From: Halanaerobiales bacterium
GTDB lineage: Bacteria > Bacillota > Halanaerobiia > Halanaerobiales > DTU029
Length of the DNA stretch: 64,000 bases
Direction of reading: 5' to 3'
NCBI GenBank assembly: GCA_022360715.1
Contig: JAKSCG010000237.1
Span: forward strand, 34,232 to 98,231
Part shown: positions 13,745-56,272 of the stretch, piece after piece
Position numbering within the stretch: position 1 is the stretch's first letter
How the letters are laid out: each line of letters begins with the position of its first letter
Position numbers and translations under genes: made by a program
Notes under the pieces: model-generated
Told to the model about the DNA's origin: nothing
Databases searched by the model: none
Seen by the model: the letters and a program-made list of their open reading frames with translations, nothing else

Positions 13745-14650
13745 TTACCAAAAGCTGTGCAGCCACCTTAAGACCGGCGTCAAGTCGAGCTGATCGGCCA
13801 GTCTTTTGAGCTGGGGAATTTTACTGTATTTATCCATCCCGATCGGATCATGCAAGAGCGGATTTAAACGATAATACCTTTTTCCCAAAAGGTAGTCTGT
13901 AACCAGGTAATCAGTTTGAGCGGCACTACTGAAGAGCAAAGAAACCAATGGCATTGGAGGGTCTGCCCCAAAATACCATTGCCAGGCACCCCAGTCAGCT
14001 GTATTACCTTGAATCCTTTTCGGTAGATAGCCGGTACCCAGTGAAATTAAGCTCATTTTCGGTAAACCTTCCCGTCCCGATAGTCTGGAAAGGGCATAAG
14101 CCAGGGCAACTGTACTTGGATTATTGGCTACTACTGCCCCATCAATATAGTTTTGATGGGAGGGAAAAAAGATTGGGGCCGCACAACTGGCTAAAGCAAC
14201 ATCGATGACCCGGGCATCTTGATCATCAGTATCTGATAAATTACTAAAAAAAACGGGACCCCAGCTGTTCCTATTTTCAGGGCATGCCTTAACTTTAAAA
14301 GCAGGAATCAACACATTATATTCGAGATCTTTTAATTTAAGATTTAACGGGAAAACAAGTTCCAGCACTTTCTGCAATCTTTCCAGACTATAGCGCGGTT
14401 GAGTTAAACCCCTGCTTTGCCGCTTAAAGATATACCGGCAAAGTTCTACCGAATAAAGTTGATCTAACCATTCGATCTCAATCCCGGCGGCCAGTCCCAG
14501 CGCAATAAGGGAACCGGTTGAGGTACCGGCAAACATGTTAACCTGCTTTAATAAATTGGGAGTATTCTCGCTTAATCGGCTTAAAACTCTGGCTGTTAAT
14601 GCCCCACGAACCCCTCCTCCATCAAAGGTCATTATTCGGCATCCATCCAT
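13745..14650 (-). CDS. Patatin-like phospholipase
   Basis: FDGGGVRG oxyanion motif, GTSTGS (GxSxG nucleophile elbow) and DGAVVANNP (catalytic Asp). GGAGTG lies 7 nt upstream of the ATG. Confidence 0.85.
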   Translation of the reverse strand: MDGCRIMTFDGGGVRGALTARVLSRLSENTPNLLKQVNMFAGTSTGSLIALGLAAGIEIEWLDQLYSVELCRYIFKRQSRGLTQPRYSLERLQKVLELVFPLNLKLKDLEYNVLIPAFKVKACPENRNSWGPVFFSNLSDTDDQDARVIDVALASCAAPIFFPSHQNYIDGAVVANNPSTVALAYALSRLSGREGLPKMSLISLGTGYLPKRIQGNTADWGAWQWYFGADPPMPLVSLLFSSAAQTDYLVTDYLLGKRYYRLNPLLHDPIGMDKYSKIPQLKRLADQLDLTPVLRWLHSFW

Positions 14651-14720
14651 AGCTTTTCACTCCATAATAAAATATATATTATATTATGGTTTCTGCTTAA
14701 AATTGACAAAACCCAATAAA

Positions 14721-14748
14721 GAAAAACCCCCGGAGATAACCCCGGGGG
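14721..14748 (-). terminator. Terminator after ompM copy 1
   Basis: The minus strand reads CCCCCGG-gguuaucu-CCGGGGG followed by UUUUUC, about 25 nt after the stop at 14773. Confidence 0.7.
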
Positions 14749-14772
14749 TTTATTATGGAACAGAAGCATTGC

Positions 14773-16965
14773 CTAAAAACTAATACTAACACCGGCTTGG
14801 GCCGTGCTAACTTGATAGTCTTGCGCTTTATTTATATTACCAGCTGTGTCTTTTAATTCCAATAATTGATAATTGGCCTTGAAGTCAACTCCGTCAGTAA
14901 TCGTATAGACTAGCCCTGCTTGATTGGTGTTGTATTTACCCTGATCAGCAGTAGTACCCTCTACTTCTTTATAGGTATAGTCATAATTAAACTTAGCTGC
15001 TCCTAAGCTGTAACCAACACCAAGGTTATACTCCGTCGTCTCTTCATCCTCATCTTCGCCAATATCTTCAAAGGCAAATCCGGCCCTGATCACTAAATCG
15101 TTAAATACAGGATAATCAACTACCTTTACTCCATAGTCGATCGTTACTACGTCTTTACCGGCAATATAGTCATCATCAGTTACGTTTTCATACCCGGCCT
15201 CTGCTGTTATATATTCATTTGCTGCATATTTTACCCCAAATTCCAGGGTTGTTTCCTCTTTTCCGGTTTCTACCGGGTCTTTAACCGCGTATTCACCGGT
15301 TACGGTCAAGTCTTCAGTTAAAAGTGGCATCATACCGGTCAGCGCCAACTTAGTTGTTTCATCTTCTCCTTTTTCTACTTGAGCATAGAATAAACTGGCT
15401 TCCAGTAAATCAGTTATCTGCTCACTTACCTTGAAGTTCCAGCCGGTCATATCGGCTTGACCCAGCCCGGTGGTAAACTGATCATAGTCATCATCATCAG
15501 CATCAAATATTAGATCATTTTCACTAATTGGCTTAAAGTATTCGTCCCGGTTCTTGTAATTGAACTCAAGAGCAGCAAATGGTAAGCTGGTAATTGCTCC
15601 CAAGCGAATCAATGAACCGTTATCAGCTCCGTCCACTTCAGGGACGGAATGAGCAAAATCAAGATAGGCGTCTATTTGGCCCAACTGAGCATTGAGGTCA
15701 ATCCCTAATAAATTATGGTTCATATCTTCAACTTTAACTACCGTTCCACATTCACCGGTAAAGAATTCATTCCGGGCTCGCCGACTGCTAATGTTTACCC
15801 CAAAATCCAGGCCTTCTAACCCAAATCTCTTCCTGGCCCCCATCACATAAAAGTCATCACTATCTTCGACCAGATCTAGGTAAGCACCAGTTGTCGGATC
15901 ATAGTCCTCATAAACGTCGTGTCCATTATCTAAATCTTTAGTTCCGGCAACATCGTAATCGATCATCCCAAAAAAGGTCTCTAAGCCAAGTTTTTTCCAG
16001 TCAACTACTATCCCATTAATTTCAGCCTGACTATAGGCATAGTCAGCTATGTCTACGACGTTTTCTTCGTTATAGACTGCTTTTAAAGCCTCATTTTCCA
16101 TAACTAATTCAGCCTGATCCAAAATCAAGACATCTTCAACATCATCTTTTTCGTGCACATCCAGTTTGACAACGGCAGTTAAGCCATTAGCAACTATATT
16201 TGCCTGCAAGTCCAGAGTCTGTTCTACTTTTCCATCTGTTTTGTCATAGTCAATTTCGATCTTTTTGGAGTCGTCATCCCAGGGATCAGAATAAAGATAA
16301 GAGTCGTCCCGGTCTCCTTCTCCCAGGTCATATTCACCGTCATCGTCAGTATCAATGTATTCTTCTTGGATCAGCCTTCCTTCGATCTCTTGGTCGGTCA
16401 ACTCTACATTGTATTTCCCGCTAAAGCTAACTACCGGAGCAACCTTTTCTAATGCAGTGACTCGTGCTTCCACCGCATCTACATCGGCATAGATACCATC
16501 GATTTTCTGGTCGAGTATCTTTAACTCTGCTTTAAATTCAAAGGTTAAAGCCTCAATCAAGTTAACCACTTCTTCTACCTGCTGTTCACTTAAGTTTTTG
16601 GATCCTCCGCTTGCCGGTGGTTGGTTTTTGGCTAAAAGAGCTTTGACAATTGCCGTTACATCCTCTGCCTGTGCTTTGCTTAAATTGTTAGCGACATCGT
16701 CGATCTCCTCAGCGAGCATTTTCCGTTCCATCTCGATCTTGTCCAGGATCCGGCTTACTATGATCGCAATCTCATAGCGGGTCAGGTTGTTTTTCCCCTT
16801 AAAACTTCCGTCGGGATAACCCTCAGCGATACCGGATGCCACCAACTTGTTTACGGCCCGATAGGCCCAGTGGTTAGCCGGCACATCAGTAAAAGGCCCG
16901 GCAAAAGAAGTTGTGGTGACAAAGATCATCAATAAAAAAACCAGTAAAAAACTATATTTTTTCAT
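14773..16965 (-). CDS. ompM: OmpM-type porin/OM tether: SLH domain + coiled coil + beta-barrel (copy 1)
   Basis: Signal peptide. SLH motif FTDVPANHWAYRAVNKLVASGIAEGYPDGSFKGKNNLTRYEIA. A heptad-rich segment (residues ~80-180). An acidic insert. A ~480-aa amphipathic-strand barrel ending ...AGVSISF. This architecture defines OmpM/Mep45 of diderm Firmicutes. Confidence 0.85.
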   Translation of the reverse strand: MKKYSFLLVFLLMIFVTTTSFAGPFTDVPANHWAYRAVNKLVASGIAEGYPDGSFKGKNNLTRYEIAIIVSRILDKIEMERKMLAEEIDDVANNLSKAQAEDVTAIVKALLAKNQPPASGGSKNLSEQQVEEVVNLIEALTFEFKAELKILDQKIDGIYADVDAVEARVTALEKVAPVVSFSGKYNVELTDQEIEGRLIQEEYIDTDDDGEYDLGEGDRDDSYLYSDPWDDDSKKIEIDYDKTDGKVEQTLDLQANIVANGLTAVVKLDVHEKDDVEDVLILDQAELVMENEALKAVYNEENVVDIADYAYSQAEINGIVVDWKKLGLETFFGMIDYDVAGTKDLDNGHDVYEDYDPTTGAYLDLVEDSDDFYVMGARKRFGLEGLDFGVNISSRRARNEFFTGECGTVVKVEDMNHNLLGIDLNAQLGQIDAYLDFAHSVPEVDGADNGSLIRLGAITSLPFAALEFNYKNRDEYFKPISENDLIFDADDDDYDQFTTGLGQADMTGWNFKVSEQITDLLEASLFYAQVEKGEDETTKLALTGMMPLLTEDLTVTGEYAVKDPVETGKEETTLEFGVKYAANEYITAEAGYENVTDDDYIAGKDVVTIDYGVKVVDYPVFNDLVIRAGFAFEDIGEDEDEETTEYNLGVGYSLGAAKFNYDYTYKEVEGTTADQGKYNTNQAGLVYTITDGVDFKANYQLLELKDTAGNINKAQDYQVSTAQAGVSISF

Positions 16966-17015
16966 TTACTTCCCCTCACAGTTTAGTTTTCTGATTCAAC
17001 TATTCCGGCTCAGGC

Positions 17016-17045
17016 TACCATAAGTATCCTCGTTTCCTTATGGTA
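17016..17045 (-). promoter_or_regulatory. Conserved leader hairpin ~50-80 nt upstream of the ompM1 start
   Basis: The minus strand reads UACCAUAAG-gaaacgaggaua-CUUAUGGUA (9 bp). The same hairpin is at 40952..40981 upstream of ompM2, with one U.U mismatch. Confidence 0.4.
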
Positions 17046-17174
17046 TTACCACCGAAGCTGAATCAGATTTATTTATCATAATCATTTTGTAGGACCATAG
17101 ATTGAAAAACTAAAATCCACCCCCCTCTCCCAGATTTAGTAATACAAAATGATCTGAACAATTGGAATCTTTTT

Positions 17175-17300
17175 AAAAAACCCCAAGAGAAGACATATTA
17201 TGGCGCCCCCCATAATGACCAGTACAGTCCCCAGCACAACAAGGGGTCAAACAAAGCTGGGAAAGCCAGACTGGTGAAAATTTTTTCTATCTTCTCTTGG
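17175..17300 (-). ncRNA. Candidate structured cis-regulatory RNA or sRNA in the ompM1 leader (copy A)
   Basis: The minus strand reads CCAAGAGAAGA ... ACCAGU [CUGG-cuuuc-CCAG] ... [CCCC-uuguugugcu-GGGG] ... ACUGGU c [AUUAUGG-ggggcg-CCAUAAU] augu UCUUCUCUUGG gg UUUUUU. That is an 11-bp closing helix, a 6-bp helix enclosing two hairpins, a 7-bp hairpin and then U6. It differs from copy B (41107..41231) at only 4 positions. Confidence 0.45.
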
Positions 17301-17337
17301 AAAAATTTAATCAACTAAATACATTTTTGTTATAAGT

Positions 17338-17366
17338 ATTTTATCGAACGTTCTACCTTTAACCAA
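17338..17366 (-). promoter_or_regulatory. SigmaA-type promoter reading toward the ompM1 leader
   Basis: The minus strand has TTGGTT (17366..17361), a 17-nt spacer and TAAAAT (17343..17338), about 40 nt upstream of the structured element. Operator copy 1 overlaps its spacer and -10. Confidence 0.4.
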
Positions 17367-17608
17367 GCTGTTATTATATAGACCGTTCGTTCTTTTTCCG
17401 ATAAAAAAATGTCTCGGTGAGTTCGGCAGATTTATATCGAACATTCTTTCTATTGCTTTAAATTATATCACCACTAATTTTCTCTGTCAAGTCACTGAAA
17501 ATATTTTTATTTGACTCCGTTTGCGGAATCTCTGATTCTTGTCGATTGAACTTGACAAGTGTTATCTAAACTGATATTATATTGATTAGGTTATAGACCG
17601 AATGTTCT
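17341..17608. promoter_or_regulatory. Four copies of a 14-bp near-palindromic operator motif (AGAACRTTCKGTCT) in the ompM1/tetR divergent region
   Basis: Written on the minus strand: 17354..17341 AGAACGTTCGATAA; 17393..17380 AGAACGAACGGTCT; 17447..17434 AGAATGTTCGATAT; 17608..17595 AGAACATTCGGTCT. The last lies at about +9..+22 of the tetR promoter. Confidence 0.55.
17552..17580 (+). promoter_or_regulatory. SigmaA promoter of the TetR-family gene
   Basis: TTGACA (17552..17557), a 17-nt spacer and TATTAT (17575..17580), with TG at -15/-14 (extended -10). Confidence 0.7.
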
Positions 17609-17628
17609 ATTAAAGGGTGGGCCGAATT

Positions 17629-18258
17629 ATGAATACAGATAAAAATAAAATCAGTACCAAAGACAGAATCTTAGCGGTTTCAGAAAATCTTTTTGCCGAA
17701 AAAGGCTTTGATAGTACCGGCATTGATGAAATAGCCAGTAATGTCGGCATTGCCAAATCCGTGATCTATTATCATTTTAAGAATAAAGAGGACATTCTGA
17801 AGACGCTGTTTGAAAAATATTTGGGACAGGGTTTTGAGTTAAAAAAAGATAAAATAGATGAAATAGTTATTAATGATAATGTTAATTATAAGAAAATTTT
17901 TAGTGAAACGCTGAATCGTGCCGAATTATGGAGGAATTTTTCCAGGATATTGTTTATGGAATCAATGAAAAAAACTGATCCTGAAAACAACTTATTATTC
18001 AAGCTTTGGGAAAGGAATATGGAATTCCTTTATGTTGTATACAAAGATAAATTAAATGATCAAGCTATAAGCAAAAAAAAGGAATTATTAACTAAATCAT
18101 TCTTTATGTTGGGATTGCCCTGGATTGGTTTTCAGGTCTTTGTTGCTAGCTGGTCTGAATTCGTAGACATAGAAGAAGAGGAATTAAACAAAATGCTCAC
18201 TGAAATAATGGATGAGTTTCTGGAAAAAATATGGTTGGAGAAATTGTTTAATTTATAA
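17629..18258 (+). CDS. TetR/AcrR-family transcriptional regulator
   Basis: Track ORF starts at GTG 17617. ATG 17629 has AAGGGTGG 8 nt upstream. N-terminal HTH: ILAVSENLFAEKGFDSTGIDEIASNVGIAKSVIYYHFKNKEDIL. Confidence 0.85.
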   Translation: MNTDKNKISTKDRILAVSENLFAEKGFDSTGIDEIASNVGIAKSVIYYHFKNKEDILKTLFEKYLGQGFELKKDKIDEIVINDNVNYKKIFSETLNRAELWRNFSRILFMESMKKTDPENNLLFKLWERNMEFLYVVYKDKLNDQAISKKKELLTKSFFMLGLPWIGFQVFVASWSEFVDIEEEELNKMLTEIMDEFLEKIWLEKLFNL

Positions 18259-18315
18259 CCAATAAGATCGCTATTTCAATATATATTAATACTACATGAT
18301 TTTTGGGATGGTTAT

Positions 18316-18362
18316 AGACAGAACGCTCTGTTTATTTATTTGCTTTCTAGACAGAATGTTCG
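18316..18362. promoter_or_regulatory. Two further copies of the same operator motif upstream of the MMPL/RND gene
   Basis: On the plus strand: 18316..18329 AGACAGAACGCTCT and 18349..18362 AGACAGAATGTTCG. Both match the reverse complement of AGAACRTTCKGTCT and lie ~100-140 nt upstream of the ATG at 18459. Confidence 0.5.
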
Positions 18363-18458
18363 GCATACGAAGGGAGGTCTGAGCGATATGTAATAAAGAT
18401 ATAAAAAAATTATCTAATCTATTCAATCCCGGTCAAAAAAAATTAAGGAGGGACTCAA

Positions 18459-20939
18459 ATGAAAAGCAATAAACTAAAAGAAAAGATTGCTTCTTTCGGT
18501 ATGAATGTAATTATTAAGCGTAGATACCTCTTTCTTCTTCTCTTGCTTGTACTTGTGGTGATATGTGCAGTCGGTGCTCAGAAAGTTAGGCTTAACAGTA
18601 ATGATGAGGCTTTCTTTCCGGAAGATAGTCCTACATTAAAAAAATATGATCGATTTAAGGAGATCTTCGGTAGCGAGGAGTACATTTTTATCCTTGTTGA
18701 GAGTGAGCAAATTTTTAACTATGATGTTTTAAAATATATCGACGACTTAAGTCAGGACATCAACGAAAACTTGCCTTTTGTAAAGAAAGTAACTTCTTTA
18801 ACCAACATTGAGTATCTTCAAGCAACAGATAATAATTTAATTATTGAGGATTTATTTAAAGGGGGAATTCCCAAGGACCCGGAAAAACTTAATCAAGTTA
18901 AAGATAAAGTTTTAGCCAAGAAATCTTATGTCGGAAGTATAATAACCGCCGATGCAAAGAGCACGGGAATAATTGTTCAAATTAAAGCTCTCCCTGACTC
19001 GGTTTATGCCGCTGTTCCCGAGAATTTTACTCCCATTCAGCAGGAAAACTGGCCGCCGGAAAAAATACTGATGAAATCAGATCTATATACTAATCCTGCT
19101 GCCCAAGCGGGACTTAATCAAGTACTTGATCCCCGCAAATTGATCACACCGGCTCTAAGGGTTATTCTCAATCGGCAACCGGAAGAAAATGTTAAAGTAT
19201 ATGCTACCGGAACGCCCATTATCAACTATGAGCCGGATCTAGTCGCTGCTCAGGAGGGCGGAAAGTTTGGTGTAATCGCTTTATTAGCTGCGGTTATCCT
19301 GATGTTCCTCCTATTTAGAAGTTTTAGAGCTATCCTGGGGCCATTTATCGTAATCCTGTTTACCATGATTATGTTGTTTGGCCTGCTAGGCTGGTTAAAC
19401 CTAGAATTATCAATGCTGATTATTATTATTCCAACACTAATTCTGGTTATCTCGGTCAGTTATTCCATCCATGTAATCAATCATTTTCTTTACGCCTTTA
19501 ATCAAACAGGGTCCAGAGCAGCAGCGATTAAATATGCCTATCAAGAATCAACCTGGCCGATCTTGATCACTGCGGTTACCACAGCTTTAGGATTCCTGTC
19601 ATTTGTAGTACTCCCGATGCCTCCAATTAAAGTAATTGGGATTAGTTGTGCTTTAGGTGTCTTTATTGCTTATCTGCTTGTGATGACTATTATTCCGATT
19701 ATTTTTTCGATCGGCAAAGATCGGACTAATAAAAAAGGGGAAAAAATCAAACAGGCCAAGAAGGAATCCTTTCGCGATAAAATGGTTAGCTGGTCAAATT
19801 TTGTTGCTAATAATGTTAAATTTACGGTATTGCTCACAGTTATATTAGTACTGGTTTTAATTGGTTTTTCCTTCAAGATGCAAGTTGACCCGGATATATT
19901 GGAAATGATCGGTGATGATATAAAATTTGTTAGAGATACCAAATATATTACCGAGCGACTGGGTTCTCCCTATTCTTATGAGATATTGATTGAACTCCCG
20001 GAAGAAGAAATGGCAAAAAATAGTGCAATTCTGCAGGAAGTAGATCGGATGAGCGATTTAATAAACAACTGGGAAACTACATCCAACATAACATCACTTA
20101 CAAATATTATTAAAGATTTGAACTTGACAATGAATAATAATAATGAGGGATATTATACTATACCGGATTCAGAGCAATTAATCTCGCAGTATCTACTGTT
20201 ATATGAAATGTCAGGGGGAGAAGGTTTAGAAGAGTGGGTTAACTTTTCTTATGACAAAATGCGTGTTTCTGTTCAGGTTAATGAGTTTAAGGAGCGGCTA
20301 AACAATGACTTCGAAAAAATAAGTGCTTATGCCGATCAGCATTTCCCGGCCGGCACAAAAGTAACAGTCGTCGGAAACATTCCGATCTCCCTGCAGGTAA
20401 TGGAGTATATCTCGCAGGGGCAGATAACCTCGATACTATTGGCGCTATTGGTTATAACGATTATTATGATTATTGTGCTAAAATCACTGAAACTAGGCTT
20501 ACTTTCGATGCTGCCTAATGTTATACCAATACTAACAATTATCGGTTTGATGGGTATGGTCGGGATTCCACTCAATTTATTTACCCTAATAATCGCTCCG
20601 ATGATCCTGGGAATTGCCGTTGATGATACCGTTCACTATTTTGTTCACTTCAAGGAAGAATTTATGGAAGCCAAATCCTATTCAAAAGCCAATAGAGAAA
20701 CCTTTAAAAAAATCGGCCCTGCTTTAATCTTCACATCAGTTATCTTAATGATTGGTTACGGGATATTCAGTGTATCAAAAATGCAGGCTTTTGCCCATGT
20801 AGCAATACTCTCTACTGCCGGCATCTTTATTGCCTTAGTGGCCGATATGTTCCTCACACCGGCTATTATTATGTACCTTAAACCCTTTGGCCGGCCGGTA
20901 AAGATAACTGAAAAGGAGAATGCCTCCTATGAGAACTAG
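18459..20939 (+). CDS. RND-superfamily exporter, MMPL/HpnN-like (COG1033 type)
   Basis: 826 aa. One N-terminal TM, a large soluble loop, a 5-6 TM bundle (residues ~265-420), a second large loop and a second TM bundle (~650-810). This is the 12-TM pseudo-duplicated RND/MMPL layout. AAGGAGGG lies 7 nt upstream of the ATG. Confidence 0.75.
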   Translation: MKSNKLKEKIASFGMNVIIKRRYLFLLLLLVLVVICAVGAQKVRLNSNDEAFFPEDSPTLKKYDRFKEIFGSEEYIFILVESEQIFNYDVLKYIDDLSQDINENLPFVKKVTSLTNIEYLQATDNNLIIEDLFKGGIPKDPEKLNQVKDKVLAKKSYVGSIITADAKSTGIIVQIKALPDSVYAAVPENFTPIQQENWPPEKILMKSDLYTNPAAQAGLNQVLDPRKLITPALRVILNRQPEENVKVYATGTPIINYEPDLVAAQEGGKFGVIALLAAVILMFLLFRSFRAILGPFIVILFTMIMLFGLLGWLNLELSMLIIIIPTLILVISVSYSIHVINHFLYAFNQTGSRAAAIKYAYQESTWPILITAVTTALGFLSFVVLPMPPIKVIGISCALGVFIAYLLVMTIIPIIFSIGKDRTNKKGEKIKQAKKESFRDKMVSWSNFVANNVKFTVLLTVILVLVLIGFSFKMQVDPDILEMIGDDIKFVRDTKYITERLGSPYSYEILIELPEEEMAKNSAILQEVDRMSDLINNWETTSNITSLTNIIKDLNLTMNNNNEGYYTIPDSEQLISQYLLLYEMSGGEGLEEWVNFSYDKMRVSVQVNEFKERLNNDFEKISAYADQHFPAGTKVTVVGNIPISLQVMEYISQGQITSILLALLVITIIMIIVLKSLKLGLLSMLPNVIPILTIIGLMGMVGIPLNLFTLIIAPMILGIAVDDTVHYFVHFKEEFMEAKSYSKANRETFKKIGPALIFTSVILMIGYGIFSVSKMQAFAHVAILSTAGIFIALVADMFLTPAIIMYLKPFGRPVKITEKENASYEN

Positions 20940-38696: not shown

Positions 38697-40898
38697 TTAA
38701 AAGGAGATACTAACACCGGCTTTGGCTGTTCTAACTTGATAATCATCGGCCCCGTTTAAGTCACCGTCGGTATCTTTTAAGGCAAGCAGCTGGTAATCAG
38801 CCTTGAAATCAATTCCGTCAGCAACCGTGTAGACTAAGCCAACTTGATTGCTATTATATTTACCAACTTCAGCTGTTTTTCCCTCTGCTTCTTTATTGCG
38901 ATAGTCATAACTTAATTTAACTGCACCCAAGGTGTAGCCAAGACCAAGATTGTATTCCATCGTCTCTTCATCTTTATCTTCGCCAATATCTTTAAAATTA
39001 AGCCCGGCCCGGACTACTAAGTCTTTAAATACCGGATAATCAATGACCTTTATCCCGTATTTGACGGTAACTACGTCTTGACCGGAGACATAAGCATCAT
39101 CTGCTACATTTTCATAACCCAACTCGGCTGTCAGGTAATCATTTGCGGTATACTTGACATCAAACTCGAGGGTTGTTTCTTCGACACCGGCTTCGACCGG
39201 GTCTTCAACGGTATATTCACCACTAAGAGTTAAGCCTTCAATTAGAACCGGCAGCGGCATTTCACCGGCCAGCGCCATCTTGGTCGTTTCATCACCGACT
39301 TCTTCTATGCTGGCGTAGAATAAACTGGCTTCCAACAAATCAGTTATCTGCTCGGTTAATTTGAAATTCCAACCGGTCATATCGGCTTGACCCAGCCCGG
39401 TGGTAAACCGATCATAGTCGCCGTTACCACTATCAAAGACTACATTATCTTGGCTAATTGGGGTAAAGTTTTCATCCCGGTTTTTGTAATTAAACTTCAA
39501 ATCGGCAAAAGGCAAGCCTGTACTGACCCCCAAACGGATCAATGAACCATTATCGGCAGCTTCCTGTTCCGGGATGGAGTGAGCGAAATCAAAATTCAGG
39601 TCTATTTCCCCGAACTGAGCATCTGTATCAATTCCCAAGATATTATGGTTCATATCTTCAACCTTAACAACCGTTCCACATTCACCGGTAAAAAACTCAT
39701 TCCGGGCCCGCCGGCTGGTAACGTTTACTCCGAGGTTCAGCCGGTCCAACTCAAATCTCTTCCTGGCCCCCATCACATAAAAGTCATCTTTATCTTCAAC
39801 CGGGTCCTGGTAAAGATTGGTTGTTGAGTCATACTTGTCATAAGTTGGAAAACCGTCTTTATAATCGATTGTACCGGGGACATCATATCCGGCCGTCCCA
39901 AAAAAGGTCTCTAAACCAAATTTCTTCCAGTCAACTACTAATCCGTTAATTTCGGCCTGGCTATAGGCATAGTCAGCTATGTCTACAACGTTTTTTTCCT
40001 TGTAGACTGCTTTGAGGGTTTCATTTTCCAAAATTAATTCAGCTTGATCTAAAACCAAAACGTCTTTAACATCGCTATCTTCATGTACATCCATTTTTAC
40101 AGCCGCAGAAAAGCCCTCTTTAACTATCTTGGCCTGCAAGTCCAGGGTCTGTTCCACTTTACCGTCAGATTGATCAGCGGCAATCTTTTCAGAATCATCA
40201 TCCCAGGGGTCAAGATAGACATACGGATCTTTATAATCCTCTTCCCCGGAATCATAACGACCGTCTTTATCTTTATCGATATATTTATCGACATCAGTAG
40301 CAATAACTCCGTCTTCAATATACTGATCCACCAAATCTACACTGTATTTCCCGCTAAAGCTAACTACCGGAGAAACCTTTTCTAAAGCAGCAACTCGCGC
40401 TTCCACGGCATCTACATCGGCATAGATTCCATCAATTTTCTGGCCGAGTATCTTTAACTCCGCTTTGAATTCAAAGGTTAAGGCCTCAATCAGATTAACC
40501 ACTTCTTCCACCTGCTGATCGCTTAAGTTTTTGGAAATTCCGCCTGCCGGTGGTTGGTTTTTAGCTAAAATAGCCTTGACAATTGCCGTTACATCCTCTG
40601 CCTGGGCTTTGCTTAAATTGTTAGCGGCATCGTCGATTTCCTCAGCCAGCATATTGCGTTCCAGTTCAATCTTGTCCAGGATCCGGCTTACTATGATCGC
40701 AATCTCATAGCGGGTCAGGTTGTTTTTCCCCTTAAAACTTCCGTCGGGATAACCCTCCGCGATACCGGAGGCCACTAACTTGTTTACGGCCCGATAAGCC
40801 CAGTGGTTTGCCGGTACATCAGTAAAGGGGTTGGCAAAGGCAGTTGTGGTGACAAAGATTGTCAATAAAAAAACCAGCAAAAAACTATATTTTTTCAT
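38697..40898 (-). CDS. ompM: OmpM-type porin/OM tether: SLH domain + coiled coil + beta-barrel (copy 2)
   Basis: 733 aa, collinear with copy 1. The first ~190 aa are almost identical. The insert at residues ~190-260 and several loops diverge. Ends ...AGVSISF. Confidence 0.85.
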   Translation of the reverse strand: MKKYSFLLVFLLTIFVTTTAFANPFTDVPANHWAYRAVNKLVASGIAEGYPDGSFKGKNNLTRYEIAIIVSRILDKIELERNMLAEEIDDAANNLSKAQAEDVTAIVKAILAKNQPPAGGISKNLSDQQVEEVVNLIEALTFEFKAELKILGQKIDGIYADVDAVEARVAALEKVSPVVSFSGKYSVDLVDQYIEDGVIATDVDKYIDKDKDGRYDSGEEDYKDPYVYLDPWDDDSEKIAADQSDGKVEQTLDLQAKIVKEGFSAAVKMDVHEDSDVKDVLVLDQAELILENETLKAVYKEKNVVDIADYAYSQAEINGLVVDWKKFGLETFFGTAGYDVPGTIDYKDGFPTYDKYDSTTNLYQDPVEDKDDFYVMGARKRFELDRLNLGVNVTSRRARNEFFTGECGTVVKVEDMNHNILGIDTDAQFGEIDLNFDFAHSIPEQEAADNGSLIRLGVSTGLPFADLKFNYKNRDENFTPISQDNVVFDSGNGDYDRFTTGLGQADMTGWNFKLTEQITDLLEASLFYASIEEVGDETTKMALAGEMPLPVLIEGLTLSGEYTVEDPVEAGVEETTLEFDVKYTANDYLTAELGYENVADDAYVSGQDVVTVKYGIKVIDYPVFKDLVVRAGLNFKDIGEDKDEETMEYNLGLGYTLGAVKLSYDYRNKEAEGKTAEVGKYNSNQVGLVYTVADGIDFKADYQLLALKDTDGDLNGADDYQVRTAKAGVSISF

Positions 40899-41106
40899 TT
40901 GCTTCCCTCGCTTATATTTTAGTTTGTTTGACTCACCATTCAGGAAAAAGCTACCATAAGTGTCCTCGTTTCCTTAAGGTATTACTTCCCGAAGTTGAAT
41001 CAGTTTTATCATGATCATTTTGTAGTACATAGAATGAAAGTAAAATCCACCCCCTCTCTTAGATTTAGTAATACAAAATGATATGAACAATTAGTAGAAA
41101 TCTCTT

Positions 41107-41231
41107 AAAAAAACCCAAGAGAAGACATATTATGGTGCCCCCCATAATGACCAGTACAGTCCCCAGCACAACAAGGGGTCAAACAAAGCTGGGACAGGCA
41201 GACTGGTGAAAATTTTTCTATCTTCTCTTGG
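41107..41231 (-). ncRNA. Candidate structured cis-regulatory RNA or sRNA in the ompM2 leader (copy B)
   Basis: Same helices as copy A: P1 CCAAGAGAAGA/UCUUCUCUUGG (41231..41221 and 41125..41115), followed by G + U7. Sequence upstream of 41231 is unrelated to that upstream of copy A. Confidence 0.45.
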
Positions 41232-41334: not shown

Positions 41335-41364
41335 ATTTTACCATACCGTTTGGTAAGATGTCAA
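41335..41364 (-). promoter_or_regulatory. SigmaA promoter reading toward the ompM2 leader
   Basis: The minus strand has TTGACA (41364..41359), an 18-nt spacer and TAAAAT (41340..41335), with TG two nt upstream of the -10 (extended -10). Confidence 0.55.
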
Positions 41365-52665: not shown

Positions 52666-53982
52666 TTACTTGAGCACCGTCCAACCTTTAATCCGGGCCA
52701 AAATTTCAAACGGTTTGATAAAATCACCATAAACCATTGAAACATGGTGGGCAATCCCCTTGGTAATTACCAGCTGAAGCACCTCCCGAACCGGACGTTC
52801 AAATTTAACCCGGGCATAACTCCCTTTTAATGCTTTCTCCATCGCAACTGCCTCCCCCTGCTGTAAAAATAGTCGATGCTGACCACCGGCTGAGTCCAAG
52901 CGCAGGATTGAGACGGGACCGGACTTCATCACAAAATCGGCGGTAACCCCTTTACCATCGGCAAAATATGAATCGAGAGTAAGCTTACAACTCCCATCCC
53001 ACAGGTTACAAGGAGCGACACCACAGTGCCATAACAGGGCATAATCTTCTTCAAAATCTACTTGGGAGAGGTCGGCCAGGAAAGGGGTCTCAGCTCCGAC
53101 AGCCCGATGAGCCAACATTGATACCGCCCCTTCCACATCACCTTCACAGGAAATTATTTGCTCTTCAGACTGTAGTAAGGATAAAGCAGCACAGGGAGAA
53201 ATCCCAAATTTAGCGGCAAACTCCGGCCAGCATCTGAGGGCCAGCGCGGTCAAATTATGCTGATTAATGAAATTATCCAGTTTAGCTGATAATTCAGCTA
53301 CCTTCTGCAATTGTAACTCACTGAGCCCGCTGGTATCAAATATGCTCTTTATTTTCTCTCTTTTTTCGTCAATTGTTTTTTGAGCAACAACATAGCTATA
53401 AAGCTCTTCCAGTTCAAAATGATCGACTAAAAAGCCCAGCTGTCGATAAGCATTTAGTTCGTCAATGGCCAGGTTAAAAAAGCCGTGCGCCCGGTATCCG
53501 GCCAGACCAATCTTGGCATCACGCCAGGCTGCCATAACCCGGATTGCATCCAGCCAATCCTGGTCCACCGTATCACCAATTGTATAGTGATAACCCCTTA
53601 CCCCTGCTTTGTAAAGATTAGAGGCATTAAGATTAACCCCACAGACGGAATTTAATCTAATCTTACCCCCATCATAGGGTAATTCCTTTAGTCCCCACAA
53701 AAGCAACGGTTGATCAATCACTTTATTTAATTCCAGGACTAGGTGGCCCAGATGGAAGGTCCCGCTGATAACTATTAAACCGTCCAGTTGACTTTGCGCC
53801 AGCTTTTGCGCGGCCCGCCGTGCATCTTCCACCTCAATGACCAGTTCATTAATAAAGACAAAATCGGTATATTCAATTAGTTGCAATTCCTTTTTGATCC
53901 CCTGATAGATAACTTCGGCCGCCTGATAGTCAAAAGTCTTCCGGGCCAGACAGACCACACCAATCTTAACCTGCTGTTTCAT
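52666..53982 (-). CDS. L-fucose/L-arabinose isomerase-family protein (COG2407-like)
   Basis: 438 aa. N-terminal KIGVVCLARKTFDY... and C-terminal ...FLADLSQVDFEEDYALLWHCGVAP... resemble the short fucose-isomerase-like family. Assigned from memory of the family pattern only. Confidence 0.5.
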   Translation of the reverse strand: MKQQVKIGVVCLARKTFDYQAAEVIYQGIKKELQLIEYTDFVFINELVIEVEDARRAAQKLAQSQLDGLIVISGTFHLGHLVLELNKVIDQPLLLWGLKELPYDGGKIRLNSVCGVNLNASNLYKAGVRGYHYTIGDTVDQDWLDAIRVMAAWRDAKIGLAGYRAHGFFNLAIDELNAYRQLGFLVDHFELEELYSYVVAQKTIDEKREKIKSIFDTSGLSELQLQKVAELSAKLDNFINQHNLTALALRCWPEFAAKFGISPCAALSLLQSEEQIISCEGDVEGAVSMLAHRAVGAETPFLADLSQVDFEEDYALLWHCGVAPCNLWDGSCKLTLDSYFADGKGVTADFVMKSGPVSILRLDSAGGQHRLFLQQGEAVAMEKALKGSYARVKFERPVREVLQLVITKGIAHHVSMVYGDFIKPFEILARIKGWTVLK

Positions 53983-54010
53983 TTAATCACCTGCTCCCCT
54001 ATCTTTGCTC

Positions 54011-54487
54011 CTATTTAAAATTATCTTCTTCGATTTGCTGTACTTCTAGAAAAGCCTGGCGTAAAAAAGCCTGCTTTTCTGCCGGAAATCCTTCGGTAAA
54101 ACCCGCTTTAAGCCAGCGCTCCACCATATCAATAGCCTGCTGGGGGGCCAACAGCCAGCCGCCCAATGTTAAAACATTAGCCTGATTTATAATCGAGGAC
54201 ATCCCGGCACTATAACTCCCTTCAACCACTGCCGCATAAACCCCTTTAAATTTATTGGCGATAATATTCATCCCCATCCCGGTACCACAGCAAAGAATCC
54301 CCTTTTGATATTCCCCTGATTTAATCCTTTGGGCTACTTTAGGTGCTACTACAAAATATGGCTGAAAATCCTCCTGATTTTGCATCCCGACATCCTCCAC
54401 CTGATAACCTGAAGCAATTAAATGAGCCTTCACTGTCTCCTTTAAGGAAAAACCTGATCGATCGGAGCCGATAATAATCTTTTTCAA
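54011..54487 (-). CDS. RpiB/LacA/LacB-family sugar-phosphate isomerase
   Basis: KIIIGSDRSGFSLKETVKAHL... and CCGTGMGMNIIANKFKGVYAA (catalytic Cys context) are the RpiB-family hallmarks. Confidence 0.8.
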   Translation of the reverse strand: MKKIIIGSDRSGFSLKETVKAHLIASGYQVEDVGMQNQEDFQPYFVVAPKVAQRIKSGEYQKGILCCGTGMGMNIIANKFKGVYAAVVEGSYSAGMSSIINQANVLTLGGWLLAPQQAIDMVERWLKAGFTEGFPAEKQAFLRQAFLEVQQIEEDNFK

Positions 54488-54500
54488 AACTAATCCCTCC

Positions 54501-55436
54501 TTATTTTCGTTTAATAACTTCTCGGACAGCCTTAGCTATATCGCGCGCTGTCATTCCGTACTTTTCCATCAAAAATTCCTTAGTTCCGACCTCTCCAAAA
54601 TGATCTTTAACTCCGATTCTTTTCATTGGAACCGGATCGTTTTCAACTAGTATTTCGGCAACAGCGCTTCCTAAACCATTGATAATATTATGGTTTTCAG
54701 CGGTAACAATAGCCCCGGTTTCCCGGGCCGCCTTCCGTACTGCTTCCTGATCAATCGGTTTTATTGTATGCATATTTACTAAGCGAACCTTTATTCCCTC
54801 TTCTTTTAATTCCGCGGTGGCTTCCAGCGAATTTCTAACCATCAGCCCGCTGGCAAATATTGTAGCATCACTTCCCTCGACCAGTGTGGATGCCATACCT
54901 AATTTAAACGCAATATCCTCATTAATCACATTCTCGGAATATTTTCTGATCATCCGGAGATAGACCGGCCCTTTATGCTCCAGGATCTGGGGCAAAGCCT
55001 TTTTAAGTTGATTACCGTCTACCGGCTCATAGATCACCATCTCCGGAATATTTCTCATAATGCCAACATCTTCGAAGCTCATATGGGTGCCTCCATTTAA
55101 TTCGGCCGATACTCCCGGATCACTTCCCATCATCTTAACATTGAGATCGGAATAAGCAATTGAGATAAAAATTTGATCAAAACACCTTCTGGTGGCAAAG
55201 GGAGTAAAGGTATGGGTAAAAGGAATCTTCCCCATAGCCGATAATCCGGCGGCAACTCCGATCATATTAGCCTCGGCCACTCCCACATTAATCAAGCGAT
55301 CCGGGAATCTGTTCTTAAAAGAAACAGTTTTGGCGGCAGTCATCAGGTCTGCTTCCAGCAGGATAATCCGTTCATCTTTTTCCGCCAGTTCAATCAAACC
55401 TTCTACGTAGATATCTCTTACTTCTTGCCCACTCAT
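54501..55436 (-). CDS. Transketolase, C-terminal (pyrimidine-binding) subunit
   Basis: 311 aa. ...FPDRLINVGVAEANMIGVAAGLS... and FASGLMV... motifs. 4-nt overlap with the N-terminal subunit gene. Confidence 0.85.
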   Translation of the reverse strand: MSGQEVRDIYVEGLIELAEKDERIILLEADLMTAAKTVSFKNRFPDRLINVGVAEANMIGVAAGLSAMGKIPFTHTFTPFATRRCFDQIFISIAYSDLNVKMMGSDPGVSAELNGGTHMSFEDVGIMRNIPEMVIYEPVDGNQLKKALPQILEHKGPVYLRMIRKYSENVINEDIAFKLGMASTLVEGSDATIFASGLMVRNSLEATAELKEEGIKVRLVNMHTIKPIDQEAVRKAARETGAIVTAENHNIINGLGSAVAEILVENDPVPMKRIGVKDHFGEVGTKEFLMEKYGMTARDIAKAVREVIKRK

Positions 55437-56272
55437 TCCCCTTCCTCCTCTACTGAATCTAATCTCTCAATCGCCTTTTTCCACTGTCCTTCGCTTACCG
55501 GCATATTATGGGAGGCCAGTTTACCCTCAGCAAAATAAGCCCCTTTACCCTTAATTGTCTTTAAGATGATCATCGAAGGTTTGCTTTTTTCCGTTTGCGC
55601 TTTTTTAATGGCAGCCAGAATCTGCTCAAGATCATGACCATCAATCAGTTGAACCGACCAGCCAAAAGCTCGCCATTTTTGATCAAGCGGTTCCAGTCCG
55701 TTTACATCCTGAGTATAACCGTCAATCTGCATTTGATTATAATCAACAAAGGCGATTAAATGATCCAGCCGGCGATTAGCAGCCAACATAGCCGCTTCCC
55801 AGATCTGCCCTTCCTGGCTTTCCCCGTCTCCGATCACTGTATAGATGTTACAAGGAAGTGAATCCAATTGAGCGGCGATCGCCATTCCGACAGCTGCTGA
55901 TAGGCCCTGGCCGAGCGAACCGGCCGTCATATCGATCCCTGTTGTCAGTTTCATATCACAATGGCTGGGCAGACTGGTATTCCCCCGGTTTAAGGTCTCC
56001 AGTTCATCTACCGCAAAATAACCTTTGAGGGCTAAGGTAGCATATAGTGCCGGACCCCCGTGTCCTTTGGACAGGATAAATCTATCTCTATTTTCTAGCC
56101 CCGGTTTGGCCGGATCAATATTCATTACCGCAAAATATAACACTGAGAGAAGATCGGCAATTGACAGTGAACCCCCGACGTGACCGACCCCCAATTGGCC
56201 GATCATTTTAAGCGTCAGTTTGCGGATCTCTCTGGCTTTTTCTTTTAAATACTTAATCTGCTCTTCGCTCAT
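55433..56272 (-). CDS. Transketolase, N-terminal (TPP-binding) subunit
   Basis: 279 aa. GHVGGSLSIADLL, SKGHGGPALYA and the TPP motif GDGESQEGQIWEA...NQMQIDG. Confidence 0.85.
   Translation of the reverse strand: MSEEQIKYLKEKAREIRKLTLKMIGQLGVGHVGGSLSIADLLSVLYFAVMNIDPAKPGLENRDRFILSKGHGGPALYATLALKGYFAVDELETLNRGNTSLPSHCDMKLTTGIDMTAGSLGQGLSAAVGMAIAAQLDSLPCNIYTVIGDGESQEGQIWEAAMLAANRRLDHLIAFVDYNQMQIDGYTQDVNGLEPLDQKWRAFGWSVQLIDGHDLEQILAAIKKAQTEKSKPSMIILKTIKGKGAYFAEGKLASHNMPVSEGQWKKAIERLDSVEEEGE

What the first reader, a model, noticed from the sequence alone, without database searches (positions are those of the whole stretch)
17175..17300. Near-identical ~125-nt multi-helix RNA element with a 3' U-tract in the leaders of both ompM paralogs (candidate new riboswitch, attenuator or sRNA)
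Read on the minus strand, the same strand as ompM, the sequence is: CCAAGAGAAGA-uagaaaaaauuuuc-ACCAGU-[CUGG cuuuc CCAG]-cuuuguuuga-[CCCC uuguugugcu GGGG]-acugu-ACUGGU-c-[AUUAUGG ggggcg CCAUAAU]-augu-UCUUCUCUUGG-gg-UUUUUU.

This gives an 11-bp closing helix, a 6-bp helix enclosing two small hairpins, and a separate 7-bp hairpin. A U6/U7 tract directly follows the closing helix, so the element can terminate or attenuate transcription. The U-tract exists only in this orientation.

The second copy (41107..41231) differs at 4 positions in ~118 nt: one in the P3 loop, two in the first small hairpin, and one U in the linker. By eye, the rest of the shared leader and the coding 5' ends are clearly more diverged. 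Homology stops abruptly at the 5' edge of the closing helix.

Each copy has its own promoter in unrelated upstream sequence: TTGGTT-17-TAAAAT for copy A and TTGACA-18-TAAAAT for copy B. About 190-210 nt of conserved leader follow before the ompM start, including a 9-bp hairpin at 17016..17045 / 40952..40981.

I do not see the conserved cores of TPP, SAM, FMN, purine, lysine, glycine, c-di-GMP, yybP-ykoY or cobalamin riboswitches. A structured regulator in front of the major OM tether/porin of a diderm Firmicute would be new to me.

Caveat: with only two copies there is essentially no covariation support, and the two substitutions in the first small hairpin weaken it rather than compensate.
Basis: seen in the sequence. 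Interest (0 to 1): 0.8.

Follow-up and report, generated by a model that had tools for sequence, protein, structure and literature searches.

The report
New structured leader RNA before OmpM paralogs
The repeated ~125-nt element is real and belongs to a previously undescribed, structurally conserved RNA family that sits between the promoter and the coding region of one accessory outer-membrane tether/porin (OmpM) gene across Halanaerobiales, ends in a terminator-like helix plus U-tract, and most likely controls whether transcription continues into the gene.

Summary
Both copies are at the stated coordinates, with 4 substitutions and 1 indel in 127 nt.

The element (here "LE1") is not specific to this genome. 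A covariance model built only from the window copies found diverged homologues in seven other loci. These include Halanaerobium praevalens DSM 2228 and H. saccharolyticum. Each homologue lies in the leader of a syntenic ompM paralog (RND/MMPL pump, LE1-ompM, patatin).

On a 10-sequence structural alignment, 96% of cells pair and 18 of 35 pairs show double-sided changes. Slid and shuffled controls score far lower.

- **Conserved features:** a 12-bp closing helix followed directly by a U-rich tail, one long hairpin whose apical loop carries the invariant ACCCCUUGUUGU, and a G-rich GGGGGGCACC loop.
- **Prior descriptions:** there is no Rfam match, and my literature searches (Halanaerobium/OmpM with riboswitch or ncRNA terms) found no description.
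- **Distribution:** canonical ompM leaders lack LE1.

My best reading is a promoter-proximal transcription attenuator with a terminator-embedded sensing domain and an unknown effector (about 0.5). Rivals are a leader-derived trans-acting C-rich sRNA, or ribosome-mediated attenuation. This is a new RNA family of a known kind, and it can be tested in cultured strains.

The parts
17175..17300 (-). LE1 copy A, the whole element: P1, J1/2, P2, P3, P1' and the U-tract.
   Evidence: R1 scores 160 bits and R2 scores 122 bits.
17289..17300 (-). P1 5' strand, CCAAGAGAAGAU.
   Evidence: It pairs with 17183-17194. Four of the 12 P1 pairs covary across 10 sequences.
17276..17288 (-). J1/2, an A/U-rich linker (AGAAAAAAUUUUC).
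   Evidence: The core AAAUUUYCA is conserved. It may form a small hairpin.
17218..17275 (-). P2, a long irregular hairpin. Its 5' strand is 17275-17258 and its 3' strand is 17233-17218.
   Evidence: Twelve of the 16 P2 pairs show double-sided changes. The MFE fold of every homologue gives the same hairpin.
17234..17257 (-). Conserved apical loop of P2. It contains the invariant 12-mer ACCCCUUGUUGU at 17247-17236.
   Evidence: Among the window and all 128 loci, the exact 12-mer occurs only in LE1 copies.
17197..17216 (-). P3 hairpin, AUUAUGG-GGGGCG-CCAUAAU. The G-rich motif GGGGGGC(A/G)CC is conserved.
   Evidence: The stem is 7 bp here and 3 bp in Halanaerobium. The loop is invariant except in L096.
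17183..17194 (-). P1 3' strand, GUCUUCUCUUGG.
17175..17182 (-). GG followed by the U6 tract directly after P1.
   Evidence: In every family member, 6-8 of the 9 nt after P1 are U.
41107..41231 (-). LE1 copy B.
- P1: 41231-41220 with 41126-41115.
- P2: 41207-41150.
- Invariant 12-mer: 41179-41168.
- P3: 41148-41129.
- U7: 41113-41107.
17337..17365 (-). Promoter-like site TTGGTT-17-TAAAAT. It occupies the position equivalent to the conserved TTGACA-17-TATATT promoter of the relatives. The operator-like GAACGTTC lies in its spacer.
   Evidence: Read from the sequence and compared.
17462..17490 (-). A perfect sigma-70 consensus promoter, TTGACA-17-TGnTATAAT, about 160 nt upstream of LE1 copy A.
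41335..41364 (-). Promoter-like site TTGACA-18-TGgTAAAAT upstream of LE1 copy B.
17081..17153 (-). LE2', a diverged homologue of the canonical ompM leader element. Its P1' is AUCAUUUUGUA/UACAAAAUGAU, and it has a GGGAGAGGGGGGUGG core but no C-run.
16991..17066 (-). LE3', a long leader hairpin. Its apex at 17045-17016 carries the conserved loop GGAAACGAGGAUAC.
14773..16965 (-). ompM paralog A (730 aa; SLH + Porin_4). It is the syntenic orthologue of the LE1-associated Halanaerobium genes.
38697..40898 (-). ompM paralog B (733 aa), a secondary duplicate that carries LE1.

Best explanation
LE1 is a cis-acting leader RNA of one accessory OmpM paralog, and it works as a promoter-proximal transcription attenuator. 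Transcription starts about 35-55 nt upstream, at a TTGACA-17-TAnAnT promoter that in most members overlaps a palindromic operator.

**Proposed steps (all inferred).**
1. As the RNA emerges, P2 and the G-rich P3 segment fold.
2. This brings the two P1 strands together.
3. The 12-bp P1 helix is GC-rich at its base and is followed at once by a U-rich tract. It then acts as an intrinsic terminator stem.
4. Termination releases a roughly 160-180-nt RNA and prevents transcription of the LE2'/LE3' leader and ompM.
5. The invariant loops are ACCCCUUGUUGU in the P2 apex and GGGGGGCACC in P3. Their C4 and G4 runs could form a loop-loop pseudoknot.
6. I propose these loops form the site where an unknown effector binds: a small molecule or ion, a protein, or the 30S subunit. 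Binding would shift the balance between P1 closure (termination) and read-through.

**Shown here:** the element, its conservation, its helices with covariation, the conserved U tail, its fixed place between promoter and leader, and its gene association.

**Inferred:** that termination occurs, that it is conditional, the pseudoknot, and the identity of the effector.
For: 1. **Homologues found independently.** Model R1, built only from the window copies, found full-length homologues in seven other loci, each at the same place in an ompM-paralog leader. Scores were 23-33 bits and E-values 2e-5 to 2e-3.
2. **Structure.**
   - 96.3% of cells pair, and 18 of 35 pairs change on both sides.
   - The covariation score is 0.49, against at most 0.155 for slid controls.
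   - None of 500 shuffles reached the observed value.
   - Each homologue folds on its own into the same architecture, with z-scores from -2.2 to -5.9.
   - The forward strand scores over 100 bits. The reverse strand scores 14-22 bits.
3. **Terminator features.**
   - A U-rich tail (6-8 U in 9 nt) follows P1 directly in all members.
   - The base of P1 is GC-rich.
   - These genomes use hairpin-plus-U-tract terminators after their ompM genes.
4. **No room for a second promoter.**
   - LE2' starts 12-22 nt after the U tail.
   - LE2' is homologous to 5'-UTR elements of canonical ompM.
   - No conserved promoter lies between LE1 and the gene (and sequence inspection).
   - ompM must therefore be transcribed through LE1.
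5. **Invariant loops.** The loops stay fixed across genera while the helices covary. The same pattern exposed the terminator-embedded HMP-PP aptamer (PMC6478431).
6. **Purifying selection between the two window copies.** P = 1.8e-6 against the leader's divergence rate.
Against: - I have no transcript data, so termination and read-through are not demonstrated.
- A terminator stem that encloses about 100 nt of multi-branched RNA is atypical. The simple terminator scan does not call it.
- I found no conserved alternative (antiterminator) pairing.
- A 12-bp P1 is much longer than the usual ligand-gated riboswitch P1. It might therefore form constitutively.
- The proposed pseudoknot has no covariation, because both partners are invariant.
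- The structural alignment was made by hand to fit the structure, which inflates the pairing counts.
- The three window-type rows are nearly identical, so independent lineages number about 5-7.
Confidence: 0.5

Rival explanations
1. LE1 is mainly a trans-acting small RNA. It would be produced from the ompM-paralog promoter by termination at P1/U-tract. The C-rich apical loop (CCCCUUGUUGU) would be its seed and would pair with G-rich Shine-Dalgarno regions. The canonical ompM mRNA (ACAAUCAAGGGGG) is a candidate target. Induction of the accessory OmpM locus would then down-regulate the main one, a logic like micF/ompC.
For: - LE1 has a promoter, a terminator-like 3' end, an A/U-rich single strand and a C-rich motif in an exposed loop.
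- The loop pairs with the invariant canonical ompM ribosome-binding site (RBS) over 11-12 bp with one bulge, at -17 to -18 kcal/mol.
- LE1's own RBSs give only -9.5 to -16 kcal/mol.
- Against shuffled loops, p = 0.017.
- The LE1 P3 motif GGGGGGCACC is the exact complement of the GGUGCCCCCC motif in canonical leaders. The two motifs occur in mutually exclusive leaders.
Against: - The canonical ompM RBS ranks only 8th of 55 when the loop is tested against all ORF starts of the window. The complementarity is therefore largely generic anti-SD pairing.
- LE1 is always physically coupled to an ompM-paralog leader, and no promoter follows it. A purely independent sRNA gene does not explain that arrangement.
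- There is no homology to RsaE/RoxS or to any Rfam sRNA.
Confidence: 0.2
2. LE1 works by ribosome-mediated attenuation. P1's 5' strand carries an SD (AGGAGA). A 5-6-codon mini-ORF lies in J1/2 (GUG/UUG-K-x-F-H-K-stop). A ribosome bound or stalled there would hold the P1 5' strand, block the terminator and allow read-through, as in leader-peptide control of resistance and efflux genes.
For: - Seven of 10 LE1 sequences have AGGAG, a 4-5-nt spacer, GUG or UUG, and a short frame ending at UGA or UAA inside the base of P2 (sequences).
- The gene neighbourhood contains an RND/MMPL transporter and a TetR regulator.
Against: - The window copies (A, B, B') have no start codon and only a weak SD at this place.
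- In L119 and L096 a 1-nt insertion shifts the frame, so the peptide is not conserved.
- This hypothesis does not explain the invariant P2 and P3 loops.
Confidence: 0.1
3. LE1 is a constitutive structural 5'-UTR module, either an mRNA stabiliser or a fixed partial terminator that merely dampens expression. It would have no sensing function.
For: - From my own knowledge, not tested here: abundant envelope-protein mRNAs such as E. coli ompA and S-layer genes carry long, structured, stabilising 5' UTRs.
- The 12-bp P1 would form without help.
- No antiterminator was found.
Against: - A stabiliser does not need a U tract directly after the helix, or 12- and 10-nt loops that stay invariant across genera.
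- Canonical ompM genes do without LE1.
Confidence: 0.12
4. LE1 is a relic: a mobile-element or MITE-like repeat with terminal inverted repeats, a leftover terminator carried along by the gene duplication, or similarity maintained only by gene conversion between the paralogs.
For: - The closing helix resembles 11-bp terminal inverted repeats.
- The 5' parts of the two genes show conversion-like blocks, including a 60-nt stretch at 100% identity.
Against: - There are no other copies in the 64-kb window or in 128 loci.
- There is no match in plasmids, phages or viral contigs.
- LE1 is present at the orthologous leader position in different genera, with compensatory changes.
Confidence: 0.03

Closest known systems
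HMP-PP (thiS motif) riboswitch, a terminator-embedded aptamer (PMC6478431)
   Same: - A conserved sensing domain lies inside what otherwise looks like an intrinsic terminator (stem plus U run).
- It was recognised by abnormally conserved loop nucleotides and exclusive association with one gene class.
- A pseudoknot has been proposed for it too.
   Different: - There is no sequence or structure homology; Rfam gives no hit.
- LE1 is about twice as long and multi-branched.
- LE1's terminator stem is the outermost helix and encloses everything.
- No ligand is known, and no conserved alternative 'ON' pairing was found.
- The regulated gene encodes an envelope protein, not a biosynthetic enzyme.
C-rich-loop sRNAs of Firmicutes (RsaE/RoxS type)
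   Same: - A C-run sits in an exposed loop and is complementary to G-rich SD sequences.
- There is a Rho-independent-terminator-like 3' end.
   Different: - LE1 is not homologous to them; there is no Rfam hit.
- LE1 is embedded in the 5' leader of a specific gene.
- Target specificity is not supported (rank 8 of 55).
micF/ompC arrangement in Enterobacteria (from my own knowledge)
   Same: A regulatory RNA is encoded next to one porin gene and could cross-regulate another porin.
   Different: - micF is a separate, divergently transcribed gene.
- LE1 lies in the same transcript as its porin paralog.
- Cross-regulation by LE1 is only a hypothesis.
Canonical Halanaerobiales ompM 5' UTR (the LE2/LE3 elements seen here)
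   Same: - It serves the same gene family and order.
- LE1-type leaders keep diverged LE2' and LE3'.
- Both leader types contain SD-like G-runs and a C-run.
   Different: - Canonical leaders lack LE1 and carry GGUGCCCCCC inside LE2.
- LE1-type leaders lack that C-run and instead carry it, and its complement, inside LE1.

Membership tests
Any Rfam 15 family (4227 covariance models) | A score at or above the family's gathering threshold, or at least a credible E-value. | tested here: not met
   - There were no hits on the whole window at gathering thresholds.
- There were none at E<=10 on 16900-17500.
- There were none at LE1 in L126, L127, L125 or L096 at E<=1.
Riboswitch (metabolite- or ion-sensing cis-regulatory RNA) | A conserved structured domain supported by covariation. 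| tested here: met
   18 of 35 pairs carry compensatory changes, and 96% of cells are paired.
Riboswitch (metabolite- or ion-sensing cis-regulatory RNA) | A consistent location in the 5' UTR of functionally related genes. | tested here: met
   All LE1 copies lie between a promoter and an ompM-paralog coding region, in a syntenic locus.
Riboswitch (metabolite- or ion-sensing cis-regulatory RNA) | An expression platform with mutually exclusive structures. | tested here: inconclusive
   The terminator-like P1 plus U tail is conserved. No conserved antiterminator pairing was found by inspection.
Riboswitch (metabolite- or ion-sensing cis-regulatory RNA) | Direct, selective ligand binding that changes gene expression. 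| not testable with these tools
   This needs in-line probing and transcription assays.
Intrinsic (Rho-independent) terminator | A stable stem with a GC-rich base, immediately followed by a U-rich tract. | tested here: met
   P1 is 10-12 bp with a CCAGG/CCUGG base. The tail has 6-8 U in 9 nt in all members.
Intrinsic (Rho-independent) terminator | A compact hairpin (loop of a few nt) at the 3' end of a transcription unit. | tested here: not met
   - The stem encloses about 100 nt with two or three inner helices.
- The element lies downstream of a promoter and upstream of the coding region.
- The terminator scan does not call it.
- Genuine terminators in these genomes are compact.
Leader-peptide (ribosome-mediated) attenuator | A short ORF with SD and start codon overlapping the terminator or antiterminator strands, conserved across members. 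| tested here: not met
   It is present in 7 of 10 members but absent in the window copies, and it is frame-shifted in L119 and L096.
Trans-acting base-pairing sRNA | Specific, conserved complementarity to target mRNAs beyond what generic sequence gives. | tested here: inconclusive
   The loop pairs with the canonical ompM RBS over 11-12 bp at -17 to -18 kcal/mol. That site ranks only 8th of 55 among window RBSs.
MITE or dispersed repeat element | Many dispersed copies, terminal inverted repeats, and no fixed gene association. | tested here: not met
   LE1 occurs only in ompM-paralog leaders. It is absent from plasmid, phage and viral collections.

The most novel reading that the evidence does not exclude
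LE1 is a dual-function element. In cis, it is a ligand- or protein-gated terminator that decides whether the accessory OmpM (next to an RND/MMPL pump, a patatin lipase and a TetR regulator) is made. The prematurely terminated ~170-nt RNA would then act in trans. Its invariant C-rich loop would pair with the RBS (ACAAUCAAGGGGG) of the canonical ompM mRNA. Its GGGGGGCACC loop would pair with the GGUGCCCCCC motif of the same mRNA. Together these would form an RNA-based switch between outer-membrane tether/porin isoforms in diderm Firmicutes.
Probability: 0.1. Interest if true: 0.85.

Novelty: new variant of a known kind. Interest (0 to 1): 0.68.

Why it matters
OmpM is the outer-membrane tether and main porin of diderm Firmicutes and other Terrabacteria (PMC10628300, listed). 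My searches of the held literature found no paper on how its expression is regulated.

This work yields a covariation-supported RNA family that I did not find described. It has about 7 lineages so far. Its architecture is unusual: the whole conserved domain is enclosed by a terminator stem. It is tied to one syntenic accessory OmpM gene.

Because it occurs in cultured, fully sequenced strains (H. praevalens DSM 2228, H. saccharolyticum), it can be tested directly. It also adds an orphan riboswitch/attenuator candidate from a poorly explored halophilic order.

The same analysis shows that canonical ompM genes carry a second, even more widespread conserved 5' UTR of about 230 nt that also has no Rfam family.

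Tried and rejected
- **Known RNA family.** Rfam gave no hit at gathering thresholds or at permissive E-values.
- **Mobile element.** There was no match in plasmids, phages or viral contigs. There were no extra copies in the window or in 128 loci.
- **Exact 22-mer scan of JGI metagenomes.** Nothing was found. Homologues surfaced only after I fetched ompM-family loci by protein and searched them with the covariance model with filters off.
They are not conserved in any non-window member. I replaced them with one long P2.
- **Small protein gene.** A 25/26-aa hydrophobic ORF starts at the ATG at 17213 (copy A) or 41145 (copy B) and keeps its frame across an indel. It has no SD, and Halanaerobium members have no ATG or ORF there, so I rejected it.
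- **Upstream leader peptides.** A 47-codon frame lies before copy A and an 18-codon frame before copy B. They are unrelated to each other, so I rejected them.
- **Specific trans target (canonical ompM RBS).** The complementarity is real but not distinguishable from generic anti-SD pairing (rank 8 of 55).
- **Conserved antiterminator.** I looked for one between the P1 5' strand and upstream or internal UUCCUG-like segments. It is present in some lineages but not consistently, so I dropped it.
- **MAFFT alignment for pair counting.** It put P2 out of register for the window, L125 and L096 rows. I used a hand-made, N-padded alignment instead.
- **CM-fitted alignment A6.** It came out at 256 columns with large inserts and was unusable.
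- **Taxonomic placement of the window.** No marker genes are present. I assign the order only from the best protein hits.

Full report
**1. The observation**

The two copies differ by four substitutions and one 1-nt indel in 127 columns.
- The element folds at -47 to -48 kcal/mol, with z about -3.4 against dinucleotide shuffles.
- The downstream ORFs (14773-16965 and 38697-40898) encode 730 and 733 aa proteins with an SLH domain and a Porin_4 domain, i.e. OmpM-type proteins.
- A sliding identity profile of the two loci shows LE1 at about 97%. The rest of the leader is at 78-83%, the stretch before the ATG at 65-73%, and the first 560 nt of the coding region at about 90%. The remainder of the coding region is at 55-85%.
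- The first 185 codons carry 29 synonymous codon differences. Five differences in 127 nt is far below the neutral expectation (P = 1.8e-6 at the leader's rate).
- One 60-nt coding block is 100% identical. Gene conversion therefore operates in this region and, taken alone, would weaken the argument from the two copies.

**2. The element is a family, not a local duplicate**

Rfam gave nothing at gathering thresholds or at E<=10.

I built covariance model R1 from the window copies alone. It found only strain variants among the first 90 ompM loci:
- L081 is identical to copy A.
- L086 and L087 carry CU to GG in the middle of P2.

Canonical ompM leaders lack the element. This includes a third paralog, L090, from the same metagenome sample as L086.

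An exact 22-mer scan of JGI metagenomes found nothing. I therefore fetched loci through the family-specific coiled-coil part of the protein. R1 with filters off then found full-length, diverged matches in L096, L112 and L119, each in the leader of an ompM-family gene.

Protein searches showed what these genes are:
- L112 encodes a Halanaerobium 'S-layer protein' (P0121).
- L096 is 80% identical to P0029.

Looking up P0029, P0126, P0123 and P0124 gave four more loci: L125, L126 (H. praevalens DSM 2228, CP002175.1), L127 (H. saccharolyticum) and L128. Each has an LE1 at the same position, scoring 27-33 bits.

The exact 12-mer ACCCCTTGTTGT occurs only in LE1 copies among the window and all loci held.

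**3. Structure**

MAFFT placed P1 in register but not P2. I made a block-wise structural alignment, padded it with N so that it passed through the aligner unchanged (alignment A8), and counted pairs.

| Measure | Result |
|---|---|
| Cells forming a standard pair | 96.3% |
| Pairs with changes on both sides | 18 of 35 (4 of 12 in P1, 12 of 16 in P2) |
| Covariation score | 0.49 |
| Best slid control | 0.155 |
| Shuffles reaching the observed value | 0 of 500 |

*Caveats.* The alignment was fitted by hand to the structure. The three window-type rows are also nearly identical.

*Independent support.* Each homologue folded alone gives the same architecture, with z from -4.2 to -5.9 for the Halanaerobium and L125 members and -2.2 for L096. 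Model R2 scores the ompM strand above 100 bits and the opposite strand at 14-22 bits.

*Consensus.*
- P1 is 12 bp.
- J1/2 is an A/U-rich linker with core AAAUUUYCA.
- P2 is one long hairpin. In Halanaerobium it is 10 bp, a 1-nt bulge, then 6-7 bp.
- P2 is capped by an 18-26-nt loop, (A)GCGACUUGUUACCCCUUGUUGUUCC.
- A G-rich segment, CGG-GGGGCA-CCG, follows. It has a 7-bp stem in the window and none in L096.
- The P1 3' strand comes next, followed by a U-rich tail.

In the window the homologous fold is the MFE one: UUCCCAGC pairs with GCUGGGGA around the conserved loop. The C4 run in the P2 loop and the G4 run in the P3 loop could pair with each other. Both are invariant, so this cannot be tested by covariation.

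**4. Context**

In Halanaerobium and L125 the gene order is as follows:
1. an AcrB/RND transporter;
2. an ORF of about 300 aa;
3. a TTGACA-17-TATATT promoter with one to three copies of the palindrome GAAYGACCGGTCAGTCAT;
4. LE1, LE2' and LE3';
5. ompM;
6. patatin, then further on an OMP beta-barrel gene and a TetR gene.

Window copy A has a divergent TetR gene and an MMPL/RND gene upstream, and patatin downstream. It also has GAACGTTC and GAACGAACGGTC repeats around its promoter. Copy A is therefore the syntenic orthologue. Copy B sits beside an XRE regulator and a Lon-like protease and is a secondary duplicate.

LE2' begins only 12-22 nt after the U tail. LE2' and LE3' are diverged versions of the 5'-UTR elements shared by 31 distinct canonical ompM leaders. 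No conserved promoter fits between LE1 and the gene. ompM must therefore be transcribed through LE1.

Leaders with LE1 lack the GGUG(C/U)CCCC motif that all canonical LE2 elements carry, and the reverse also holds.

**5. Mechanism**

The features conserved in every lineage are these:
- a closing helix with a GC-rich base;
- a U-rich tail immediately after it (6-8 U in 9 nt);
- two loops that stay invariant while the helices covary.

These genomes use ordinary hairpin-plus-U-tract terminators after their ompM genes. The most economical reading is a promoter-proximal attenuator in which the sensing domain is enclosed by the terminator stem. This is functionally like the terminator-embedded HMP-PP aptamer (PMC6478431), although the two are not homologous.

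Not shown here: that termination happens, that it is conditional, and what binds. I found no conserved antiterminator, and a 12-bp P1 could close unaided.

**6. Rivals**

*Trans-acting sRNA.*
- The C-rich loop pairs with the invariant canonical ompM RBS (ACAA-U-CAAGGGG) at -17 to -18 kcal/mol.
- It pairs with its own RBSs at only -9.5 to -16 kcal/mol.
- GGGGGGCACC is the exact complement of the canonical LE2 motif.
- Against this, the same loop pairs as well or better with 7 of 54 other ORF starts in the window. The signal is therefore mostly generic anti-SD complementarity.

*Ribosome-mediated attenuation.* Seven of ten members have an SD in the P1 5' strand and a 5-6-codon frame in J1/2. The window copies do not, and two members are frame-shifted.

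*Constitutive stabiliser or damper.* This does not explain the U tail or the invariant loops.

*Relic, MITE or conversion artefact.* This is contradicted by the orthologous, covarying copies in other genera.

**7. Comparison with what is known, and novelty**

- There is no Rfam family.
- My searches of the held literature found no paper describing an RNA element for Halanaerobium or OmpM.
- LE1 is a new RNA family of a known general kind: a 5' leader with a built-in terminator, i.e. an orphan riboswitch or attenuator candidate.
- Its architecture is unusual and its target class is envelope proteins.
- It is restricted so far to Halanaerobiales, and its function is unproven. This keeps the interest score below the top range.

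**8. Verdict**

The inner structure and the kind of gene it precedes needed correction.
- My best explanation is a cis-acting attenuator (0.5).
- Interest is 0.68.

Noticed in passing
window 17153-16991 (-) and about 41095-40925 (-); loci L001-L005, L082, L083, L088, L090-L095, L097-L124: Canonical ompM genes of Halanaerobiales share a conserved 5' UTR of about 230 nt.
- Element LE2 has covarying P1 and P2 helices and a GGAGGUGCCCCCC core.
- A long hairpin, LE3, follows it.
- The RBS AACAAUCAAGGGGGA is nearly invariant.

There are 31 distinct sequences and no Rfam family. The window's two paralogs keep diverged versions of both elements. This looks like a second undescribed leader RNA, more widespread than LE1.
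   Followed up: partly
window 17045-17016 (-) and 40981-40952 (-); all ompM-family leaders: The apical loop of LE3, GAGGAAAC(A/U/G)AGGAWAC, is nearly invariant while its stem covaries (CCAUAAG/CUUAUGG against AAUGAG/CUCAUU).
- It gives a weak, sub-threshold match to the Cyano-1 RNA loop (RF01701; 17 bits, E = 2.4).
- From memory, it resembles GGA-in-loop CsrA binding sites. I did not test this.
   Followed up: no
window 17490-17337 (-); L125 2480-2680; L112, L119 and L126-L128 just downstream of the -10 box: Operator-like palindromes lie around the LE1-ompM promoters.
- In Halanaerobium and L125 the palindrome is (T)GAAYGACCGGTCAGTCAT, with three copies in L125.
- In window copy A the repeats are GAACGTTCGAT, GAATGTTCGAT and GAACGAACGGTC.
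- Copy A also has a perfect TTGACA-17-TGnTATAAT promoter at 17490-17462.
- A TetR-family gene is nearby (window 17617-18258, +).

This points to repressor control layered on top of LE1.
   Followed up: partly
window 13745-20939; L125-L128: The LE1-bearing ompM paralog has conserved neighbours: an RND/MMPL-type transporter and a patatin-like phospholipase, plus an OMP beta-barrel gene and a TetR gene in Halanaerobium. This suggests an envelope, lipid or efflux module rather than the housekeeping OmpM locus (LptFG, DUF3084, RuvX, ompM).
   Followed up: partly
window 17213-17136 (-) and 41145-41065 (-): A 25/26-codon hydrophobic ORF (MGGAIICLLLGFFKK...) starts inside P3 and runs across the U tract. 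It stays in frame in both copies despite a 3-nt indel. It has no SD, and Halanaerobium members have no ATG or ORF there, so it is probably spurious.
   Followed up: yes
L126 2666-2686; same place in L127, L128, L112, L125 (J1/2 of LE1): In 7 of 10 LE1 members, an AGGAG in the P1 5' strand is followed by GUG or UUG and a 5-6-codon frame (M-I/K-K/Y-F-H-K-stop). It is absent from the window copies and frame-shifted in L119 and L096.
   Followed up: partly
window 16965-16400 against 40898-40340, and L090 3001-3560: The N-terminal ~190 residues (SLH domain plus coiled coil) of OmpM A and B are about 90% identical at the nucleotide level, with one 60-nt block at 100%. Long peptide stretches are also identical to the canonical paralog P0008. 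This suggests gene conversion among ompM paralogs.
   Followed up: partly
L083 2520-2650: An unrelated ~130-nt multi-helix element in another Halanaerobiales genome. A ~19-bp closing helix (AAAAAAUGAUGUACCUUUU / AAAAGGUACAUCAUUUAUUU) encloses two hairpins and is followed by a T-rich run. It lies between an ABC permease gene and the ompM promoter.
   Followed up: no
L088 5404-5712: Group II intron domains (RF02001 at 159 bits; RF01998 at 70 bits) lie directly downstream of an ompM gene.
   Followed up: no
window 52666-61239 (-): Genes matching sulfoquinovose isomerase (SftI-like), an acylating sulfoacetaldehyde dehydrogenase (SauS-like) and a DASS transporter. Together they look like a possible sulfoquinovose or sulfonate degradation cluster.
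   Followed up: no
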